From: Mobula hypostoma
Taxonomy: Eukaryota
Reading direction: 5' to 3'
Length of the DNA stretch: 64,000 nt
Assembly: GCF_963921235.1 (NCBI RefSeq)
Contig: NC_086097.1
Coordinates: 51,028,001-51,092,000, forward strand
Part shown: positions 661-63,770 of the stretch, piece by piece
How positions within the stretch are numbered: the stretch's first letter is position 1
Layout of the letters: each line of letters begins with the position of its first letter
Made by a program: the position numbers and the translations under genes
The notes under the pieces: generated by a model
What the model was told of the DNA's origin: nothing
Seen by the model: the letters and a program-made list of their open reading frames with translations, nothing else
Databases searched by the model: none

Positions 661-709
661 GGTGATAATCTACCAATTACAGCTGCCTTGCTCATTCCTC
701 AATTCCACC

Positions 710-840
710 TTCCTTAAGAAGGGCCGCAGCCTGAAATGTCAACTGTTTATTCATTTCCATGGATGCTGCCTAACTTGCTGTGTTCCTCATTATAGTGTGC
801 GTTGCCCTGGATTTCCAGCATCTACAGGATCTCTTATGTT
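710..840 (+). repeat. Penelope-type short repeat with a degenerate hammerhead motif
   Basis: CCTTAAGAAGGGCCGCAGCCTGAAATGTCAACTG...GATGCTGCCTAACTTGCTG aligns to the copies at 20300, 30200, 40528 and 58070. Confidence 0.6.
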
Positions 841-931
841 CATGAAACTACATTAGTAATTAATAAAATTCTCTACCATGAGAACAAAAGTATAAAACAT
901 TATGTTTGAAATGAGCCAAATTTATAATTAC

Positions 932-1674: not shown

Positions 1675-2160
1675 TTCCTCTCTCTGGTTCCTACCTCCTG
1701 ACATTATTCCATTGTCCACTCCTATGAGATTCCTTCTTCAGACCTTTGCCTCTGCCCTCTATCACCTTCCAACTTCTCACATCATTCCCCTTTTCCCACT
1801 CCCCCAGCCACCTGCATTCTCCTGGAGTGCAATGCACTTTTCGGTAGCTGCTTGACTTTATTACTACACTCTGTTATCATTTTACCAAGTTCTATCTCAA
1901 TGCACTGTGTACTGATTTGATCTGTATAAACAATGTGCAAGACAAGCTTTTCACTGTACCTTGGCACATCGAATAATAATAAATCTATTCCAATTCTAAA
2001 CATACCACCTGCCAACTCACGCTCCACCACCTCCCTTTTTATTCTGGCTTCTACCTTCTTTCTTTCAAGTCTTAATGAAGGGACAGCCTAAAATGCCTAA
2101 TATTTCAACATTTTGTGTGTGCTGCTCTAGATTTCTAACATCTGTAATCTCTCATCTATG
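1675..2160 (+). repeat. Longer degenerate Penelope-type LTR-like repeat (pyrimidine-rich) with a decayed hammerhead motif near 2066-2100
   Basis: AGTCTTAATGAAGGGACAGCCTAAAATG followed by ATTTTGTGTGTGCTGCTCTAGATTTC; interrupted by a LINE-tail fragment at about 1820-2000. Confidence 0.45.
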
Positions 2161-5709: not shown

Positions 5710-6765
5710 TCCCTCTAAGTCCCATTATGCCATGTACCTTTCTAAGTGACTCTTCAATGATACTATTATACCTGCCGCAACCATTTCCTCATGCAACTTG
5801 ATCCATATATTCACTACCCTCTGCATGAAAAAGTTGCCCCTCAACTCTCATAAATCTTTCCGTTCTCACCTTAAATCAATGCCACCTAATTTTGGACTTC
5901 CCTACCCTTAGGAGAAGATTACTACCGCCCACCTCTCTAAGGTTACCCCTCATTCTGCTATGCTCTAAGGAATAAGGACGTAGCCTGGAAATTCAGACCC
6001 TCTAGTTCTCAAATCTTTTCTGCATTCTTTCCAGTTTAATCACATCTTTCTTATAACAGGGTGAACAATACTAAACAGTATCCAACATGATGAAGGGTCT
6101 CAGCCCAAAACATCAACTATTCCTCTCCACAGATGCTGCGTAACCCGAGTTCCTTCAGCATTTTGTGTACGATACTCCAACTAGCCTCACAAACAACATA
6201 AATGCAACATGAAGCCCAACTCCTATAGTCAATGCCCTGAGTGATGAAGGCCAGTGTGATATGTACCTTTTGCACCATCCTGTCTACCTGTGAAAAACTT
6301 TCAATAAACTATGCACTTGTACTCAAAGGTCCTTCTATCCATTACACTCCAAAGTGCCTTACCATTCATGGTACAAGTCCTACATTAGTTTGACTTTACA
6401 AAATGCATCACCTGACACTTGACTTGAAATCCATTTACTACTCCTCAGCCCACTTCCCTAACTCATTAAAATCCCCTCTGCAATTCACTTTAGTATCAAT
6501 CAATACATCTAATTTCACATCATTTTGAAAACTTACTGATCAAGCCTTGTGTATTTACATCCAAATCATTTATATAAGCAACGAACAACAAGGGTCCCAC
6601 CACCAACCCTTGCGGTAAACTACACAGCAGCCACCAATCAAAGAAACAATCTTCAACTACCTTCTGCTTCCAGCCTCTGAACTAAGCTTGAATCCACTTA
6701 ACTAACTCTCCCTGTTTTTCATGAGACCTAACCTTCTAGACCAGCATACCAGAGGGTCCATGGTG
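5710..6765 (-). mobile_element. Degenerate CR1 LINE 3' portion (its 3' end continues at about 3895-4000, split by the Tc1)
   Basis: Reverse complement is similar to the 3' part of the CR1 at 27400-28400. Confidence 0.7.
6087..6170 (+). repeat. Penelope-type short repeat with a degenerate hammerhead motif, nested in CR1
   Basis: ATGATGAAGGGTCTCAGCCCAAAACATCAACT...AGATGCTGC...CAGCATTTTGTGT. Confidence 0.7.
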
Positions 6766-12540: not shown

Positions 12541-13964
12541 CTCTTTACAGTCCCCCCCCCCCACAACTTATGCTTAAAAAAATTATTTCCACAAGGGTGC
12601 ACACTAATGGGTGCACAGTGATTTGATTGTTACGTTTTCAACTGTGACTTGTATGTCATTTCCTTCTGATGAACATTGAAATCAACTGCAGTTCAAACGT
12701 TAACAATTGTTCTTTTCTTTCAGTAGATGAAAATATAAAAATTCTCACTTCGACTCGAAACGTTAACTGTATTTTTCTTCACAGATACCGCTTGATCTAC
12801 TGAATGATTTACATTACTTAGTTTTTGATTCAATTTTTAACTGCCATTCGTTTAGTTTAACGATATTTACTGTTCAAAATATTCTTAAGATTTATGTACT
12901 CTGCAAAAAAAGGCTGACAAGCTAAGTTGATTCAATAAACAATTTAACGATTATTAATATTGATGTATGTATTATGAATGTCCACTAATCCCTGAATGTT
13001 GCCACCTCGTGACTTCGCTAGGAATTACAAAATATGTCAACTTTATGACTGTAAATAAACAAAGCGAGAAATGACGATGAAGCTTATCTTAATAGGGCCA
13101 GTAACTTAAGTTTTTCGGTTCAAGTGTGTGTGTGTGTATGTATACAGTTGATAATCTGACCAGGTCTGACATAAGTAATTCATTTTCCATTACAATGTTT
13201 CTTCATTTTGTGCTAAAATACATAAATAATATATTAACAGCTAAATTCTGCAAATACTTCCTGTAAATATATTTCACATTAGATGTTATGTAGGTTTTGC
13301 ATAATGATGTGTGATAGATATTTTCTTGTTGTTCTGTTTGGAATGAATGAAATTGTGTACCCTGCCAACAACATTATTGATGGAAAAATATTTTCCATTA
13401 CAACGTAAGTATCCAGTGAAAATACAAAAATAAAGACAGGATGAGGGAAGAATTTTAATTAGTAGAAAGGTGAACTGTTTTTGGTTTGTGCAATCAAAAT
13501 TTAAAGATAGAAGAATGCCTTCAGCAGTATATAAGTAACCAGCTTACCATAGTTACCACAGTCATTTGTTCATGTGGGTGTTTAATAAGCAGTAGTTTCA
13601 ACTCAAACTGAATAAAAGTTCAAATCCTTTTAATGCTTTGCCAGCATCATATTAAAAATGCTAACATAGCTGCATTAATGCACATCTACTTGCAAAGGTT
13701 TGGAGAAGCTTAAATAGAAGCATCCATGCTCCCAGCAGACATCACTCATATATAAAGGTGGAAAGCCAGAGAAACATTGTTCTTGAAACTTTGTAAGGAG
13801 TTGAGTTTGGGGACCTGGGATGGCTGCAACCTTCTGGAGGAATATCAGATTCATGCTAGCCCAGCCATTTCTGCACTACCAGTCAATATGAAGGTCAACT
13901 ACTTTTTCATTTTACTTTTTACTTCTATTTTTATTTCCCCCAGGGTGAATAAAAATAAGGCTGG

Positions 13965-16900: not shown

Positions 16901-18685
16901 AGGTGAAAGTAGATATACTGTTGGAAAAAGATGCTGGGGAGATAGTAATGGGGGACAAGGAAATGGCGGACAAACTGAGTAAGTATTTTCCATCAACCTT
17001 CGCAGTGGAGGACACTAGTAGTTTGTCAGAAGTTTGAGAATGGCAGGAGGCAGAAGTGAGTGAAGTTGCCAATAGTAGGGAGAAGGTGCTTAAGAAGTTG
17101 AAAGATCTGAAGGTAGATCAATCACCTGGACAAGATGGTCTACACCCCAGGGTTCTGAAAGAGGTGACCAAAGAGATTGTGGAGGCATTACTAATGAACT
17201 TTCAAGAATCAATGGATTCTGGTATGGTTCTGGAGGCCTGAAACATTGGAAATGTCACCCCACTGTTCAGGAAAGGAGAGGTGCAGAAGAAAGGAAATGA
17301 CAGGCCAGTTAGTCTGACCTCAGTGGTTGGGAAGATGTGTAAGTCAATTGTTAAAGATGTGGTTTTGTGGTACTTGGAGGCACATGATAAAACACCCAAA
17401 GTCAGCATGGTTTCCTTAAGGGAAAATCCCACCTGGCAAATCTGTTGGAATTTTTTGAAGAAATAACAGCAGGATAGACAAAGGAGAATTGGTGGATGTT
17501 GTGTACTTGGATTTTCAGAAGGCCTTTGACAAGGAGCCACACATGAGATTTGCTTAACAAGTTAAAAACCTATAGTATTACAGGAAAGATACTAGCAATC
17601 GCTGATTGGCAGGAGGGAAAGAGTGGGAATAAAGGGGAGCCTTTTCTGGTTGGCTGCTGGTGACTAGTGGTGTTCCACAAGGTTCAACGTTGGAACCGCT
17701 TTTTTTTACGCTATATGTCAATAATTTGGATGGCAGAATTGATGAATTTGTGGCTAAGTTTGTGGATGATATGAAGATATGTGGAGGACAGTAGTGTTGA
17801 AGAAGCAGAGAAGCTGTAGAAGAACTTCCACTGATTAGGAGAATGGGCAAAGAAGTGGCAGATGAAATACAGTGTTAGGAAGTGTAAGGTCATGCACTTT
17901 GGTAGAAGAAATAAAAGCATAGACTATTTTCTAACTGGAGAGAAAATTCAAAAATCCAAAGTGCAAAGGGACTTGTAGTCTTCGTGCAGGATTCCCTAAA
18001 GGTTAATTTGCTGGTTGAGTCTGTGGTGAGCAACGCAAGTGCATTGTTAGCATTCATTTCAAGAGGACTAGAATATAAAAGCCAGGATGTAATGTTGAGG
18101 CTTTATAGGGCACTGGTAAGGCCTCTTATGGGGTATTGTTAGTGGTATTGGGCTCCTTATCTAAGAAAGGATGTGCTGACATCAGCGATGGTTCAGAGGA
18201 GGTTCACGAGAATGATTCTGGGAATGAAAGGGTTACCAAATGAGGACCAATTGATGCCTCTGGGCCTGTCATCACTGGAATTCAGAAGAATGAGGTGGGG
18301 GGGGGCGGAATCTCATTAAAACTTTTTGAATGTTGAAAAGCCTCAATACAGTGGCTGTGGAAAGGATGTTTCCTATGGTGGGAGAATCTAGGACCAAAAG
18401 GCACAGTCTCAGAATAGAAGGATGTTCATTTAGAACGGAGATTAGGAGGAAATTCTTTAGCCATAAAGAGGTGACCCTGTGGAATTTGTTGCCACAGGCG
18501 GCTGCGGAGGCCAAGTCAATGGGTAGGTTGATAGATTCTTGATTAGGACATGAAGGGTTATGAGAAGAAGGCAGGAGATTGATGCTGAGAAGGAAATGGA
18601 TCAGGCATGACGAAATAGCAGTGAAGACATAATGGGCTAAATGGCCTAATTCTGTTCCTATACCTTATGGTTCAATGGTCTTATG
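13965..18685 (+). mobile_element. Near full-length degenerate CR1 LINE (ORF1 Zn-finger + SGNH/esterase; ORF2 EN + RT pseudogene)
   Basis: ORF1 remnants VCSSCKM, VVIGDSTVR, HISTNDI and DSLHLN; ORF2 remnants DQSPGQDGLHPRVLKE and RPVSLTSVVGK; many stops and frameshifts. Confidence 0.9.
15447..16100 (-). mobile_element. Rex1/Babar LINE 3' fragment nested in the CR1
   Basis: QRVVQTAQSI and DPSHPNHKLFQLLSSGKWYRSIKARTNRFPDSFFHQAIRLLN; (AATTC)n tail at about 15449-15462. Confidence 0.85.
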
Positions 18686-20160: not shown

Positions 20161-20289
20161 CCACTCCATTAATGTTCAAACATTGATTAATCTCAGGCTT
20201 GAATTTACTCAATGACTGAGTATCCACAACCCAGCTGGGTGGAGAATTCCAAATCCAAATTGCAAACTACTAACTAATTAGCAAATATG

Positions 20290-20417
20290 AGAAAATCTTC
20301 ATATGCTAGAAATCCAAAGCAACACACACAAAACACTGGAGGAACTCAGCAGGTCGGGCAGCATCTATGGATAAAAGTACAATCGACATTTCGGGCCGAG
20401 ACCCTTCGGCAGGACAG
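20290..20417 (-). repeat. Penelope-type short repeat carrying a hammerhead-like motif (20380-20417)
   Basis: Minus strand: CTGTC CTGCCGA A GGGTCTCGGCCC GAAA TGTC GATTG, then AGATGCTGCCCGACCTGCTGAGTTCCTCCAG... Confidence 0.8.
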
Positions 20418-21161
20418 GCCAGTATTTCAAAAGCATTTCATGTGTGTTGAAAAGTAATCTTGAGAAATGTTATCTCATTTGAGTACACTGTAGCTCATGA
20501 TACTCAATTTTGTTTTCAATGATATCAGACAACTTACCTATTAACTTGTGAAGGAACTGGACAGTTCATCAGTTTCTCTGTCTCCACTATTGCTGTGTAA
20601 TCTGCAAGTAATTTCTAGTATTCCCTTTTGTTTCCAGTTTCAACCATTGCTGTGTTCCCTATCTTACAGTTCCAACATATTCTTTTGTTTTTAATTGCCT
20701 TAATTCATTTATTAACTCAATGACACTAAAAGCTTTCCATCACCTGGATAACCCGATTCCTCACTCTAAAATAGACATTGTTTTCTCCACTCTGCCCTCT
20801 CTGCAACATAATACAGTCTTCTCACTTTTCCAGTTTGGATGGAGGGACACTGACATGAAGTGTTTATTCTGTCACATTCTCCACAGAAACTGCCTACCAA
20901 ATCTTTGCCTTCCTAATTGTTTTCCATATTTGTATGCTTTCTTTTGTAGAAACTTATAATGGAACTTGTTGACATCGGGCATTTAATTACTGTATTCACC
21001 ACCTAAAGCTACTAGCTTTAAACTTCTCAAACTATTTAACACAGCCACATACATTTGTTGAAGTGCCATTTGCCAGCAGTGACTCTAGACCTGCTTTGGG
21101 GGGGATGATGACTCTCAGTTGAGGAGGAAGGAGTTGATCTTGGAGGGTGATCTGCAGAGGG

Positions 21162-30189: not shown

Positions 30190-30300
30190 TCCACAAAATG
30201 TTGGAGAAACTTATCTGGTTAGCATCAATGGAAAAGAATAAACAGTCGATGTCTCAGGCTGAGACCCTTCATCAGGACTGGTAAGGAAGGAAAAAGAAGC
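30190..30300 (-). repeat. Penelope-type short repeat with the best-preserved hammerhead stem I and CTGATGA box (30243-30280)
   Basis: Minus strand: CAGTC CTGATGA A GGGTCTCAGCCT GAGA CATC GACTG. Confidence 0.8.
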
Positions 30301-33178: not shown

Positions 33179-33228
<50 letters not shown>

Positions 33229-33244
33229 ACACACCCCCCCCCCC
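33179..33244. repeat. (AC)~24 microsatellite followed by a poly-C tract
   Basis: Direct reading. Confidence 0.95.
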
Positions 33245-40269: not shown

Positions 40270-41125
40270 TACTCAGATAAGTGTGAAGTGGTTCATTTCG
40301 GTAGGTCAAATTTGAAGACAGAATATAATGTTAATGGTAAGACTCTTGGCAGTGTGGCAGGTCAGCGAGATCTTGGGGTCCTTATCCATAGGACACTCAA
40401 AGCTGCTGTGACACTGTTGTTAAGAAGGTGTATGGTGTATTGACCTTCATCAACTTTGGGAATGAATTCAAGAGCCATGAGGTAATGGTACAGTTATATA
40501 AGACCTTAATTAGATCCCACGTGGAGTCACGAAGGGTCTCGGCCCAAAACGTCGACTGTACTTCTCCCTATTGATGCTGCCTGGCCTGCTGCCTTCCACC
40601 AGCATTTTGTGTGTGTTGCTTGGAGTACTGTGTTGAGTTCTGGTCACCTCACTACAGAAAGGATGTGGATACTATAGAGAGAGTGCAGAGGGGACTTACA
40701 AGGAAGTTGCCTGGATTGGAGGGTGTACCTTATGAGAATAGGCTGAGTGAACTTGGCCTTTTCTCCTTGGAGCGACGGAGGCTGGGAGGTGACCTGATAG
40801 AGGTGTATAAGATGATGAGGGGCATTGATCATGTGTATTGCCAGGGGCTTTTCCCCAGGGCTGACACGAGGGGGCACAGTTTTAAGGTGCTTGGAAATAG
40901 GTACTGAGGGGATGTCAGAGGGAAGTTTTTCACGCAGAGTGCTGGGCGCATTGAATGCACTGCCAGCGAAGGTGATAGAGGTGGATACAATAGGATCTTT
41001 TACTAGGTAGGTGTATAGAGCTTAGAAAAATAGAGGGCTATGCAGTAGAGAAATTCTAGGCAGTTTCTAGAGTAGGTTACATGGTTGGCACAACATTGTG
41101 GGCCGAAGGGCCTGTTATGTGCTGT
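40270..41125 (+). mobile_element. CR1 LINE 3' fragment
   Basis: DKCEVVHFGRSN and LEYCVEFWSPHYRKD...GDLIEVYKMM. Confidence 0.9.
40528..40620 (+). repeat. Penelope-type short repeat inserted into CR1 with TSD TGGAGT; 5'-truncated hammerhead motif
   Basis: TGGAGT(40522-40527) | CACGAAGGGTCTCGGCCCAAAACGTCGACTG...GTGTGTTGCT | TGGAGT(40621-40626). Confidence 0.85.
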
Positions 41126-57100: not shown

Positions 57101-58069
57101 GCTTCCTGTAAGTGATGGCAGTGGGTGGGGTGGTAAGAGTGGAGAGCAGTCCCTAGACTCTTGGGTAAACTCTCTGTAGTTTTGTTGTCACAGGTTGCAT
57201 CGTACATTAAATCCTTGTTGGAAATCATCTAACTTGTGTTTCATTTTTAGGTCATAGTGATTGGTTTTATACTCGTTGTACTATTTCCAAAAATATCAAA
57301 AGTACATTGGGGATATAACTCCCAATTAACCTTGTATTCACTATATGCTATACTAAGAAAATCTGGTCTCAGGATGGGAGAATCCAGGTAGAAATACAGT
57401 TATTTTTTATTCTGTTTTGAATTAGAATTGTTCAATTCCAGTGTACAGGATCATCTTTTAAAATTATGCATTAAAATAGAAGAAATAAGAGTAGGTCTCA
57501 TCCACTAAGTCCCTTTAGCCTGCTCCACCACACAATAAAATCATAGCTGATCTGATTTTGGCCTCGCCTCTCTTCCCTATCTCCTGCCAATAATCCTTTA
57601 TTTTCCAGTTATGTAGGTTATGATTACATTAGAAAGGAAACCATTTGCCAAAACTATTCCTGCCCCTCCCCCACACACACACATTAAATTAGAAGAGGGT
57701 GTAACTTGAACAAAGTTATAAATAGCCTAAAAATCAGTCTCCCTTAGACTTGAACCTATTTAGTAAACCGACCCACAGCTCTTTGGACTAGGAAATTCCA
57801 AGGGTTTACAATTCTGAGAGGAGAACTTGCCTCTCATCTCCATTCTAAATGGGCAACCTTCTTACTTTGAAACTACAGCCCCAATTCTACAATGCTCCAT
57901 ATAGGGATCATCTTCTGAACTCCCACTCTGTCAAACCTCAGGCTTCTATGTTTCACACCTTTCATTTTTAACATCTGTACGTCTAAGCTGTTTCATTTGT
58001 TCTTCAACCAAAGAATTACTCTAGTTTTCCTTCTTGGAGCTGCTTCTAAAACAAGTATGTCCTTCCCTT

Positions 58070-58196
58070 GCAACACACAGAAAATGCTGGAGGAACTCAG
58101 CAGGCCAGGCAGCATCTATGGAATAAAGTACAGTCAATTTTTTTCCATAGATGCTGCCTGGCCTGCTGAGTTCCAACAGCATTTTGTGTGTGTTGC
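58070..58196. repeat. Inverted pair of Penelope-type repeat tails (54-bp arms, 3 mismatches, 19-nt spacer)
   Basis: 58070-58123 is the reverse complement of 58143-58196. Confidence 0.92.
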
Positions 58197-59264
58197 TTGG
58201 ATTTCTAGTATCTTTCCTTGGGTGGTTCCTTAAGGATTCAGCATGAATTATTTCTACTTTCCACATAGTCCTTTATAGGATCTGTGGGCTGTCACAGATA
58301 GAGAAGGTGCTGCTAGATAACTAGGTTGACTGAATAATTGTAGGCTCTTACTGTTTATGCTTGACATCTACACAATCCTATTGGAGAGAGATTCAAAGTG
58401 GTCAGTCTTCTTGCACGCTCTTCTTCCTGTTTGAGGTGTTCCATTTTCTTTCCAAGGACGTTTTGGGAACATTCATGAACTCTTATTTTTTTCTTCTCTG
58501 TCTCCAGAAATCATTTTGGTGCAACAAATCTCAGTTTAGGTTGCTTTCTTCAGTTGTGTGGCCTGTTCACTGAAGATGGTTGCACATGATCAGAACTTTG
58601 GGGTGGGGGTTTTTGACATCAGCGAGGAAGCTGGTTTTGTAGATGCTGTATTGCTGTATTGGCTCCAGTTCCCCAATCCATTGCTTGCAATAAGTCGTCC
58701 ATGTGTCTAAATCAAGCAGGGATGCCAGCTGCTGACTAGTCCAAGAGCAAGGGCGTGGTCTGAGTTTGAAGTCTTGGTCATCAACAGTTCTCTTTTGCAG
58801 ATGGCTAAAGGCCATTTTGGCAGATTGGTAATGGTGTATCCATTATCCAGATAGGATGTGATCCATCAATGATCCTGATTGTTGGGAGATTATGCTATGT
58901 GGTGCACTGGACAAGTATGGTATCTTTGTTTACAAGATGTTTAAAACAAGGCCCCCTCTCTCACAAACTTGAGAAATTGACAATGGTTGGAGCCTGGTCT
59001 CAATGAGTGTGCAGGCCATAGCCACCTGCATATTAGAAGCCGATGAATGAAGATGGGCGATCTTGATTCAAGAACTAACATGGTAAAGGCCGAAGGATTT
59101 CTTGCTCATCTTATAGATTAACTCTGCCTCATCAAGGAGCTTGTTAGAGGCAAGCTGAGACATTTCAGAGAATAAGTGAGAGATTCTTTATGACAACACC
59201 GTTTTGCTGAGGAGGTCTATATACAGAATGAGGCTGTGGTGGATCCATTGGTTAGCATCATGGC

Positions 59265-63644: not shown

Positions 63645-63770
63645 TGATCCAAAACATCAATGGCCCCTCTCCCCCCCCCGACCCCCACCACCAGATGCTG
63701 CTCAACCTGCTGCGTTCCTCCAGCAGATTGTTTGTTGCCCCAGATTCCAATCTCTGCACTCTCTTGTGAC
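63645..63770 (+). repeat. Degenerate Penelope-type repeat tail
   Basis: AAAACATCAA...CAGATGCTGCTCAACCTGCTGCGTTCCTCCAGCA. Confidence 0.6.

What the first reader, a model, noticed from the sequence alone, without database searches (positions are those of the whole stretch)
30243..30280. Dispersed short repeat family whose consensus is a minimal type I hammerhead ribozyme (Penelope/retrozyme-like)
Seen: at least six copies (about 712-745+, 2066-2100+, 6087-6118+, 20380-20417-, 30243-30280-, 40529-40558+) align to CAGTC CTGAYGA A GGGT CTCG GCCC GAAA CGTC GACTG. This has stem I CAGUC/GACUG, the core box CUGANGA, a 4-bp stem II with a tetraloop, GAAA, and a palindromic ACGU instead of a stem III. 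Cleavage is predicted after GUC. Established: minimal type I hammerheads lacking a stable stem III occur in Penelope-like element LTRs and are thought to cleave as dimers. Inference: this is an abundant, possibly non-autonomous ribozyme-bearing retroelement in this genome. Caveat: every copy here has at least one core change (GAAA to GAGA/AAAA, CTGATGA to CTGCCGA), many of them compatible with CpG decay, so activity is predicted only for the consensus.
Basis: partly seen in the sequence, partly recalled or inferred. Interest (0 to 1): 0.8.

Follow-up and report, generated by a model that had tools for sequence, protein, structure and literature searches.

The report
Decayed Penelope-element hammerhead ribozyme copies
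The short repeat is the tail end of a Penelope-like jumping gene that litters this ray-like genome (an estimated half a million copies), and its consensus fits the published minimal hammerhead ribozyme pattern, which is predicted but not shown to cut RNA; every copy in this window is worn out, so this is an ordinary new member of a known kind.

Summary
All six reported copies exist, and there are four more partial ones. They belong to one dispersed family.

The family is the last ~100-140 nt of a Penelope-like retroelement (PLE). Reverse transcriptase, a Cys linker and a GIY-YIG endonuclease lie about 250-300 nt upstream. The copies show the PLE hallmarks:
- heavy 5' truncation
- head-to-head inverted pairs
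- an optional ~38-nt 3' "tail"

That consensus satisfies the published min-HHR descriptor for PLEs (Cervera & de la Pena 2014):
- CUGANGA plus one extra base
- a G10.1-C11.1 pair
- GAAA
- a palindromic CG
- UH

No window copy passes the descriptor. Genome-wide, one intact 37-mer occurs 4,745 times and a second variant 933 times. The youngest subfamily keeps a perfect core. An older lineage carries A6C.

Rfam hammerhead models do not detect the motif. The stems show no covariation within this genome because they are invariant. No RNA evidence was obtainable, so cleavage is inferred, not shown.

Verdict: a correct reading, and a new (elasmobranch) member of a known kind. This scan noted the same kind of stubs earlier in another genome (e1-7788996).

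The parts
30192..30285 (-). Focal copy: a 5'-truncated PLE tail of the older CTGATGA type. The HHR-like 38-mer is at 30243-30280. The box CTGATGA is intact. GAAA has become GAGA, the 15.2/16.2 CG has become CA, and C11.1 has become T.
   Evidence: (nhmmer E 7.7e-18, profile positions 9-104)
20277..20424 (-). Complete short tail copy of the A6C lineage (S2), with the optional 3' extension. The HHR-like 38-mer is at 20380-20417, with box CTGCCGA and a stem I mismatch.
   Evidence: (E 6.4e-44, profile 7-153)
40524..40628 (+). Tail copy truncated inside the CUGANGA box (HHR remnant 40529-40558). It ends at ...GTGTGTTGCT without the extension. It is inserted in a CR1-like LINE reading frame, with TGGAGT on both sides.
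   Evidence: E 3.1e-30, profile 17-121
709..847 (+). Decayed tail copy with the 3' extension. HHR remnant at 712-745 (box CTTAAGA).
   Evidence: (E 1.6e-25)
6086..6175 (+). Decayed tail copy. HHR remnant at 6087-6118 (ATGATGA; GAAA changed to AAAA).
   Evidence: E 1.9e-18
2066..2160 (+). Strongly decayed copy. HHR remnant at 2066-2100 with a deletion in stem II. The tail part is at 2106-2160.
   Evidence: E 2.5e-4 for 2106-2160
12750..12803 (+). Tail fragment starting inside stem II (profile positions 32-85).
   Evidence: E 5.9e-7
58066..58213 (.). Head-to-head inverted pair of 5'-truncated tails: 58066-58143 on the minus strand and 58137-58213 on the plus strand. Both arms have lost most or all of the hammerhead.
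63693..63758 (+). Tail fragment without the hammerhead part (profile positions 65-132).
   Evidence: E 6.3e-8
18018..18203 (-). Remnant of the PLE reverse-transcriptase C-terminal region. It is not linked to any of the tails above.
   Evidence: tblastn with the L037 RT-C ORF, 58% identity over 62 aa, E 8e-11

Best explanation
The repeat is the 3' tail of a Penelope-like retroelement, and its 38-nt block matches the published minimal type I hammerhead (min-HHR) pattern. In intact source copies that block is predicted to cleave the element's RNA after GUC.

Shown:
- Anatomy of the element: ORF (RT, CX4CX2C linker, GIY-YIG), then ~250-300 nt, then the 38-nt block, then ~65 nt to a first 3' end, plus an optional ~38-nt extension to a second 3' end.
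- The 38-nt block reads stem I CAGUC or UAGUC, CUGANGA, a bulged A, stem II GGGU/GCCC with loop CUCG, GAAA, CG, UC, and stem I GACUG.
- Most copies are 5'-truncated, and many are joined head to head.

Inferred:
- There is no helix III. An active fold therefore needs two motifs pairing through the ACGU palindrome, or help from the element's protein, as proposed for other PLEs.
- Cleavage would process multimeric or read-through PLE transcripts.
- All copies in this window carry core or stem lesions, mostly CpG transitions, and would be inert relics.

My odds: about 0.9 that this is a PLE min-HHR, and about 0.5 that intact copies cleave in vivo.
For: PLE context:
- ORF remnants upstream carry a ...YIGKTRRRLGDRFAEHL... 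GIY-YIG motif preceded by CKRNKCYTC, and RT-thumb-like sequence.
- Pfam GIY-YIG scores E 3e-4 on L043.
- The nearest named proteins come from rays and a shark. One of them (P0008) has RVT_1 followed by GIY-YIG above the Pfam cut-off.
- In 8 of 16 loci fetched for an exact intact motif, EN remnants end ~250-300 nt upstream on the same strand.

PLE hallmarks:
- 10 head-to-head pairs among 68 tail hits.
- 3' ends are bimodal: 44 of 132 hits end at profile positions 109-122 and 51 of 132 at 146-157. This fits the optional 30-40-bp tail described in PMC8557442 and PMC11167929 (passages).

Motif:
- I implemented the published descriptor (PMC4209133, suppl. fig. S7). It gives 6 hits in 464 kb, and 5 of them are at the same place in the PLE tail. 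First-order Markov simulations give a mean of 0.07 (30 runs).
- 18 of 75 motif-covering copies that were not chosen by the motif pass the descriptor.
- The bulged A is present in 43 of 43 copies, A13 in 50 of 51, and A14 in 49 of 51. N7 is the one freely varying core position (T 17, C 15, A 7, G 2).
- Exact intact 37-mer: 4,745 copies, with 0 for the reversed control. CTGATGA variant: 933 copies.
- The youngest cluster (n=24, 5.2% divergence) has CTGACGA in 19 of 24 copies.
- Contigs of four coded organisms hold the block. The listed variants inside it are all C>T or G>A, and 5 of 6 are at CpG sites. Loose ends sit exactly at both borders of the block.
Against: - No Rfam hammerhead model matches, not even at E<=10 on a 201-nt stretch holding two intact copies.
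- No stem covariation: 85.1% of cells are paired against 85.2% in shuffles.
- The lowest-energy monomer fold pairs the core bases GACG with CGUC (-12.9 kcal/mol, against -8.9 for the hammerhead-competent fold). Its energy is not unusual compared with shuffles (z = -1.27).
- The trans helix III is only ACGU/ACGU (-1.7 kcal/mol). The overlapping GUCGAC palindrome pairs better.
- Insertion 5' ends do not pile up at the predicted cleavage site: 2 of 132 start within one base of it.
- A sister lineage with A6C (box CTGCCGA) still multiplied: 5 of 33 motif-covering copies in the unbiased sample, and about 19 of 75 in the larger set.
- No run on record as RNA was available.
- Published work on other PLEs reports low in vitro activity (PMC4209133). 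It also reports that hammerhead mutants insert normally in vitro, and that no RNA-seq reads end at the cleavage site (PMC11167929, passages).
Confidence: 0.72

Rival explanations
1. The block is hammerhead-shaped by descent, but it is kept for a reason other than cutting. It would act as a folded platform next to the reverse-transcription start sites that the element's protein binds, and catalysis in vivo would be negligible.
For: - The A6C lineage amplified.
- There is no excess of insertion 5' ends at the cleavage site.
- The monomer prefers a rod that pairs the core.
- The rest of the tail (GATGCTGCC...CAGCAT...) is at least as conserved as the block.
- In the anole PLE, hammerhead mutants do not change insertion in vitro, and cleavage needs the protein (PMC11167929, passages).
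Against: - Every invariant hammerhead core base is retained in the youngest subfamily and in contigs of four coded organisms: the bulge, G10.1-C11.1 and the CG palindrome as well.
- Among core positions, only N7 varies freely.
- A mere protein-binding hairpin has no reason to keep exactly this pattern.
Confidence: 0.22
2. The copies are a non-autonomous retrozyme-type element: tandem units with hammerheads that propagate through small circular RNAs.
For:
- Many copies are short (100-140 nt) and begin at or near the motif.
- A 2026 preprint links animal retrozymes to PLE pLTRs and reports retrozymes in its one chondrichthyan genome (10.64898/2026.07.22.740005; abstract, passages and section 14).
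Against: - There are no tandem arrays of the unit in the window.
- The 464-kb sample has only partial tandems, and none holds two complete motifs.
- Among the first 100 listed exact sites, only one same-strand pair lies within 2 kb, and that locus is a mosaic.
- Half of the loci fetched for an exact intact motif continue upstream into EN and RT remnants.
Confidence: 0.04
3. The resemblance is chance: an ordinary SINE or LINE tail that happens to contain CUGANGA and GAAA.
For: The generic core pattern alone is not above chance in the window. Rfam finds nothing.
Against: The full descriptor is expected 0.07 times in 464 kb, but it is found 6 times, and 5 of those are at one place in the PLE tail. 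The element is a PLE, the class in which such motifs are reported to be universal (PMC8557442, passage).
Confidence: 0.02

Closest known systems
Minimal hammerheads (min-HHR) in the pseudo-LTRs of metazoan Penelope-like elements (Cervera & de la Pena 2014, PMC4209133)
   Same: - Same layout: a short helix I, CUGANGA plus one unpaired base, helix II opening with G10.1-C11.1, GAAA, a palindromic 15.2/16.2 pair, UH, and no helix III.
- Same place: the terminal non-coding region of a PLE.
- Mostly found as widespread single motifs of truncated elements, some on opposite strands close together.
- The core strings match some listed examples, for instance Ixodes scapularis(1) with CUGACGAA...GAAA CGUC (supplement).
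   Different: - Helix II here is only 4 bp with a tetraloop, whereas the Schistosoma families described in the main text have 7-8 bp; the examples in the supplementary alignment range from 3 to 8 bp.
- The host is an elasmobranch. No cartilaginous fish is in the supplementary alignment I could read (file 2; file 1 was not searchable).
- All subfamilies in this genome share the same stems, so the covariation the authors report within genomes is not seen here.
- The load is larger: at least 5,678 exact intact copies of two variants alone.
Poseidon PLE of Anolis carolinensis (PAc) and its hammerhead (PMC11167929)
   Same: - The hammerhead lies some tens of bases upstream of two alternative reverse-transcription start sites, and the spacing of those sites gives the optional 30-40-bp tail. 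Here the 3' ends are bimodal and about 38 nt apart, starting about 65 nt after the motif.
- Both DNA strands are cut and extended in vitro, which would explain the head-to-head pairs seen here.
   Different: - In PAc the motif overlaps the start of the ORF. Here no ORF continues through the tail.
- The linker here (CX4CX2C) is of the kind attributed to Neptune PLEs (PMC8557442, passage). I did not test the clade by phylogeny.
Non-LTR retrozymes of animals (PMC7229834 from the search listing only; 10.64898/2026.07.22.740005)
   Same: Type I hammerhead, related to PLE pLTRs, non-coding, very abundant.
   Different: Retrozymes are tandem arrays with complete hammerheads in successive units. These copies are dispersed single stubs or inverted pairs.
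Earlier finding of this scan, e1-7788996 (another genome)
   Same: Retroelement stubs of 90-130 bases that begin with a minimal hammerhead motif and often sit head to head. That agent also judged them a known PLE kind.
   Different: A different genome. No sequence look-alike of this family was found in the scan's index.

Membership tests
min-HHR of metazoan PLEs (Cervera & de la Pena 2014) | Fits the published RNAmotif descriptor: h5 3-7; ss 7-8 ^cuganga; h5 3-7; ss 3-10; h3; ss 8-9 gaaannuh$; h3; GU pairs allowed. | tested here: met
   Descriptor read from the supplement and implemented in a script.
- 5 PLE-tail hits in 464 kb against 0.07 expected.
- 18 of 75 copies pass.
- Exact intact 37-mer occurs 4,745 times, and the CTGATGA variant 933 times.
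- Not met by any of the copies inside the window (0 hits).
min-HHR of metazoan PLEs (Cervera & de la Pena 2014) | One unpaired nucleotide between A9 and 10.1. | tested here: met
   A in 43 of 43 copies that cover the column.
min-HHR of metazoan PLEs (Cervera & de la Pena 2014) | Conserved G10.1-C11.1 pair. | tested here: met
   G in 42 of 46 copies. C in 32 of 52, with T in 16 of 52 at a CpG, which gives G-U. Pair counts: GC 34, GU 26 of 72 distinct rows.
min-HHR of metazoan PLEs (Cervera & de la Pena 2014) | Palindromic positions 15.2-16.2, so that two motifs can form helix III in trans. | tested here: met
   The majority is CG (C in 31 of 53, G in 36 of 53; the remaining copies mostly carry T (19) or A (17), the CpG transitions), giving ACGU. 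The duplex is weak, -1.7 kcal/mol.
min-HHR of metazoan PLEs (Cervera & de la Pena 2014) | Lies in the terminal non-coding repeat of an element encoding RT and a GIY-YIG endonuclease. | tested here: met
   No full-length copy was recovered, and no copy flanked by two pLTRs. All four EN-linked copies that I extended are truncated within the RT.
min-HHR of metazoan PLEs (Cervera & de la Pena 2014) | Consensus families within a genome show covariation or compensatory changes in the helices. | tested here: not met
   Observed values equal the shuffles on every measure. The subfamily consensuses share the same stems apart from C versus U at the first pair of helix I.
min-HHR of metazoan PLEs (Cervera & de la Pena 2014) | Self-cleavage (low, as dimer or multimer) at the H17 site. 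| not testable with these tools
   No run on record as RNA and no raw reads were available.
Rfam hammerhead families (canonical type I/II/III, HH9, HH10) | A match to a curated covariance model, which includes a helix III. | tested here: not met
   No hit at gathering score in the window. None at E<=10 in four loci with intact copies, nor in a 201-nt stretch holding two.
Penelope-like elements (canonical EN+ PLEs) | RT followed by a C-terminal GIY-YIG endonuclease. | tested here: met
   All copies examined are broken by stops and frameshifts.
Penelope-like elements (canonical EN+ PLEs) | Strong 5' truncation, adjacent inverted 5'-truncated copies, and an optional 30-40-bp tail at the end of the insertion. 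| tested here: met
   Variable 5' starts and two classes of 3' end about 38 nt apart. 10 head-to-head pairs among 68 hits. A 133-nt inverted pair with 96% complementarity and a 5-nt spacer in L108. Features as described in PMC8557442 (passages).
Non-LTR retrozymes | Tandem repeats with a complete hammerhead in at least two consecutive units. | tested here: not met
   There is one same-strand pair within 2 kb among the first 100 listed exact sites.

The most novel reading that the evidence does not exclude
This genome holds a natural knock-out experiment. One PLE lineage (S2) lost the invariant core base A6 (box CUGCCGA) and weakened helix I, yet it multiplied to an extrapolated tens of thousands of copies, with its own RT-EN remnants. 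Beside it sits a younger sister lineage (S1) that keeps a perfect core in thousands of identical copies. If this holds, hammerhead catalysis is dispensable for PLE proliferation, and the block is retained for another reason or only intermittently. The function of PLE hammerheads is an open question, and this would make it testable with natural sequences.
Probability: 0.4. Interest if true: 0.55.

Novelty: new member of a known kind. Interest (0 to 1): 0.33.

Why it matters
It extends the PLE minimal hammerhead to a cartilaginous-fish genome, at a very high load. I estimate about 5x10^5 tails, extrapolated from 68 hits in 464 kb. At least 5,678 motifs are exactly intact, counted from two variants alone.

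Anyone scanning such genomes for ribozymes will meet thousands of these. They should be annotated as PLE tails, not as independent ribozyme genes.

An intact young lineage sits beside an A6C lineage, so natural test sequences are available for the unresolved question of what PLE hammerheads do. For this window itself, the copies are dead repeats with no expected function.

Tried and rejected
- **Rfam.** Gathering and E-value scans found no hammerhead. They returned only hairpin miRNA models, triggered by the inverted pair.
- **RNA evidence.** No RNA holder was listed. The four runs I laid are contigs only, so they give no starts or ends.
- **Full-length element.** Extending four EN-linked intact copies upstream gave only RT-truncated elements. 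Loci chosen for longer open frames were also broken. The 5' end of the element and its upstream pLTR are therefore not described.
- **Tandem or pLTR pair.** I examined the pair at G000:C1:11077234 and 11078522. It is a 168-nt duplication 1,288 bp apart inside a mosaic of repeats, not a clean pLTR-ORF-pLTR unit.
- **Pfam on broken RT pieces.** Only a weak RVT_1 match (E 0.043).
- **Covariation.** The test was uninformative.
- **SINE idea.** I first thought of a V-SINE or Deu-type SINE tail, from memory. I dropped it once the upstream ORF remnants turned out to be PLE RT and EN.
- **Literature.** 'Penelope' + 'retrotransposon' + 'elasmobranch' returned 4 papers and 'hammerhead ribozyme' + 'Chondrichthyes' returned 5. 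None of those I opened describes this family. The 2026 preprint samples one chondrichthyan for tandem retrozymes only. Either could list cartilaginous fishes.

Full report
**1. The observation**

The focal 38-mer at 30243-30280(-) reads CAGTCCTGATGAAGGGTCTCAGCCTGAGACATCGACTG. The other five reported copies are present at the stated places, in various states of decay.

The family-specific 14-mer GAAGGGTCTCRGCC occurs 5 times (up to 2 mismatches) against 0.48 expected. The bare core pattern is not above chance.

Self-comparison and a profile search add four partial copies, for 10 window hits in all.

**2. What the repeat is**

The 38-mer is followed in every copy by a conserved stretch, roughly ...CCATAGATGCTGCCTGGCCTGCTGAGTTCCTCCAGCATTTTGTGTGTGTTGCT. 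This is often followed by GGATTTCCAGCATCTGCAGATTTTCTCTTGTTTG. There is no poly(A).

The window is part of a 3.48-Gb genome. Longer copies continue upstream for up to about 1 kb. There they carry broken reading frames with an RT-thumb-like region, a CKRNKCYTC linker and a GIY-YIG motif...LLYIGKTRRRLGDRFAEHLRSV...HFNS...EEQHLIFRLGSLQPDGMNIDFSNF.

Support for reading these as a Penelope-like element (PLE):
- Pfam finds GIY-YIG at E 3e-4.
- The nearest named proteins are from Hypanus sabinus, Mobula hypostoma and Rhincodon typus. The host is therefore an elasmobranch, probably a ray.
- One of those proteins has RVT_1 followed by GIY-YIG above the Pfam cut-off. That is the PLE architecture.
- A 66-aa piece of the endonuclease end has 136,080 first-look candidates in the genome.
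- In 8 of 16 loci fetched for exact intact motifs, EN remnants end ~250-300 nt upstream on the same strand.
- All four such copies that I extended are truncated within the RT. I found no full-length element.

**3. Unbiased census**

I took forty 10-kb stretches at round-number coordinates, plus the window, 464 kb in all. They hold 68 tail hits. That extrapolates to about 5x10^5 copies in the genome.

- 33 hits cover the motif, and 10 of the 33 keep CUGANGA, GAAA and UH.
Most departures are C>T or G>A at the CpG sites.
- N7 is the one core position that varies freely. The bulged A is invariant (43 of 43).
- 10 head-to-head pairs occur among the 68 hits.
- In the larger set of 132 hits not selected by the motif, 3' ends fall in two classes about 38 nt apart, 44 and 51 hits.

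Strong 5' truncation, adjacent inverted truncated copies and an optional 30-40-bp tail are the published structural signature of PLEs (PMC8557442 passages; PMC11167929 passages). The latter paper also reports that the anole PLE cuts and extends both DNA strands in vitro. That would explain the head-to-head pairs; this link is my inference.

**4. Is it a hammerhead?**

Cervera & de la Pena (PMC4209133; I read parts 1-2 of the main text and supplement file 2) define the min-HHR of PLEs by an RNAmotif descriptor. They add four emergent traits:
- an extra base between A9 and 10.1
- a G10.1-C11.1 pair
- a palindromic 15.2/16.2 pair
- families within genomes

The consensus here meets the descriptor and the first three traits. 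It reads CAGUC|CUGANGA|A|GGGU-CUCG-GCCC|GAAA|CG|UC|GACUG.

- My implementation of the descriptor finds 6 hits in the 464 kb. Five are at the same position of the PLE tail and on its strand. Thirty first-order Markov simulations give a mean of 0.07.
- No hit lies in the window.
- 18 of 75 motif-covering copies pass.
- The exact 37-mer AGTCCTGACGAAGGGTCTCGGCCCGAAACGTCGACTG occurs 4,745 times, with 0 for the reversed control.
- The CTGATGA form occurs 933 times. The CTGCCGA form with otherwise intact sequence occurs 56 times.

**5. Subfamilies**

Clustering on the non-motif part of the tail gives two groups:
- A younger group (n=24, 5.2% from its majority) with CTGACGA in 19 of 24 copies. I call it S1.
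- An older mixed group (n=30, 8.8%).

The older copies include forms with CTGAAGA or CTGATGA, and a lineage with CTGCCGA/CTGCTGA that I call S2. S2 changes the invariant A6 and often has a mismatch in helix I. That A6 changes greatly reduce cleavage is recalled, not from a call.

S2 makes up 5 of 33 motif-covering copies in the unbiased sample. It is also found downstream of EN remnants.

**6. Evidence from other organisms**

Contigs of four coded runs, from four coded organisms, hold the S1 tail.
- Inside the 37-mer, the listed variants present at 10% or more are at six places. All are C>T or G>A, and five are at CpG sites. 13 rows of that table were not shown.
- The flanks show several non-CpG subfamily differences.
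- Loose ends sit exactly at both borders of the block. Other subfamilies therefore share the block and diverge on either side.

The kind of these runs is a guess, and contigs cannot show RNA ends.

**7. Evidence against, or missing**

- Rfam hammerhead models do not match.
- Stems do not covary within this genome: 85.1% paired against 85.2% in shuffles. This is expected for neutral decay of one family with fixed stems, and it says nothing either way.
- The monomer's best fold pairs the core (-12.9 against -8.9 kcal/mol) and is not unusually stable.
- The trans helix III is weak.
- Insertion 5' ends do not cluster at the predicted cleavage site, 2 of 132.
- Published work reports low in vitro activity for such motifs (PMC4209133) and no effect of hammerhead mutations on insertion in vitro (PMC11167929).

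Catalysis here is therefore inferred from the pattern alone.

**8. Verdict**

The thing is a known kind, the PLE minimal hammerhead, in a host group for which I found no explicit description. All copies in this window are relics.

It is not a retrozyme-type tandem element. This scan has described the same kind of stubs in another genome (e1-7788996). No look-alike of this sequence was in the scan's index.

Noticed in passing
L090-L099, about 10-35 nt upstream of the motif (for example L092:1465-1500): In the young S1 subfamily the bases just 5' of helix I read ...CTTACTAAC (or TACTAGC) TCTTCCTTCAG|TT-AGTCC. That is a branch-point-like heptamer, a pyrimidine tract and CAG. Cervera & de la Pena note that the Drosophila virilis Penelope intron ends at the 5' end of helix I. 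The whole UTR is pyrimidine-rich, so this may be chance.
   Followed up: no
L001-L030, for example window 20417-20424: In the S2 lineage, 11 of 46 copies begin at the same bases (TGTCCTGCCG...) next to unrelated flanks. They have T where longer copies have A. This is a sharp, recurrent 5' end at the foot of helix I, not at the predicted cleavage site. I have no explanation for it.
   Followed up: partly
window 40380-40720: The tail copy at 40524-40628 interrupts a CR1-like LINE reading frame (...LIRSHVE / LEYCVEFWSPHYRKDVDTIERVQR...). TGGAGT is present on both sides and may be a 6-bp target duplication. The LINE family name is recalled, not tested.
   Followed up: no
window 18018-18203 (-): An isolated remnant of the PLE reverse-transcriptase C-terminal region (tblastn E 8e-11), with no tail downstream of it.
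   Followed up: partly
L095:1397-1638: The S1 copy in L095 (1404-1637) sits inside another repeat. Contigs of several coded runs join 1397 to 1638 with about 8 other letters between (CACCAGCT and variants), that is, the uninterrupted form of that host repeat.
   Followed up: no
L108:1031-1301: A near-perfect head-to-head pair of intact S1 tails: 133-nt arms, 96% complementary, 5-nt spacer. On either strand the transcript would be a long hairpin. Rfam miRNA-precursor models match such pairs, so they could be mistaken for miRNA genes.
   Followed up: partly
whole genome (G000): The nearest named proteins of the element are from Hypanus sabinus, Mobula hypostoma and Rhincodon typus. Some of them are annotated as isoforms of host genes (mucin-2, a protein kinase domain protein, a chitinase-domain protein), which suggests PLE remnants were absorbed into gene models.
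   Followed up: no
window 33179-33234: An (AC)28 microsatellite. Ordinary.
   Followed up: no
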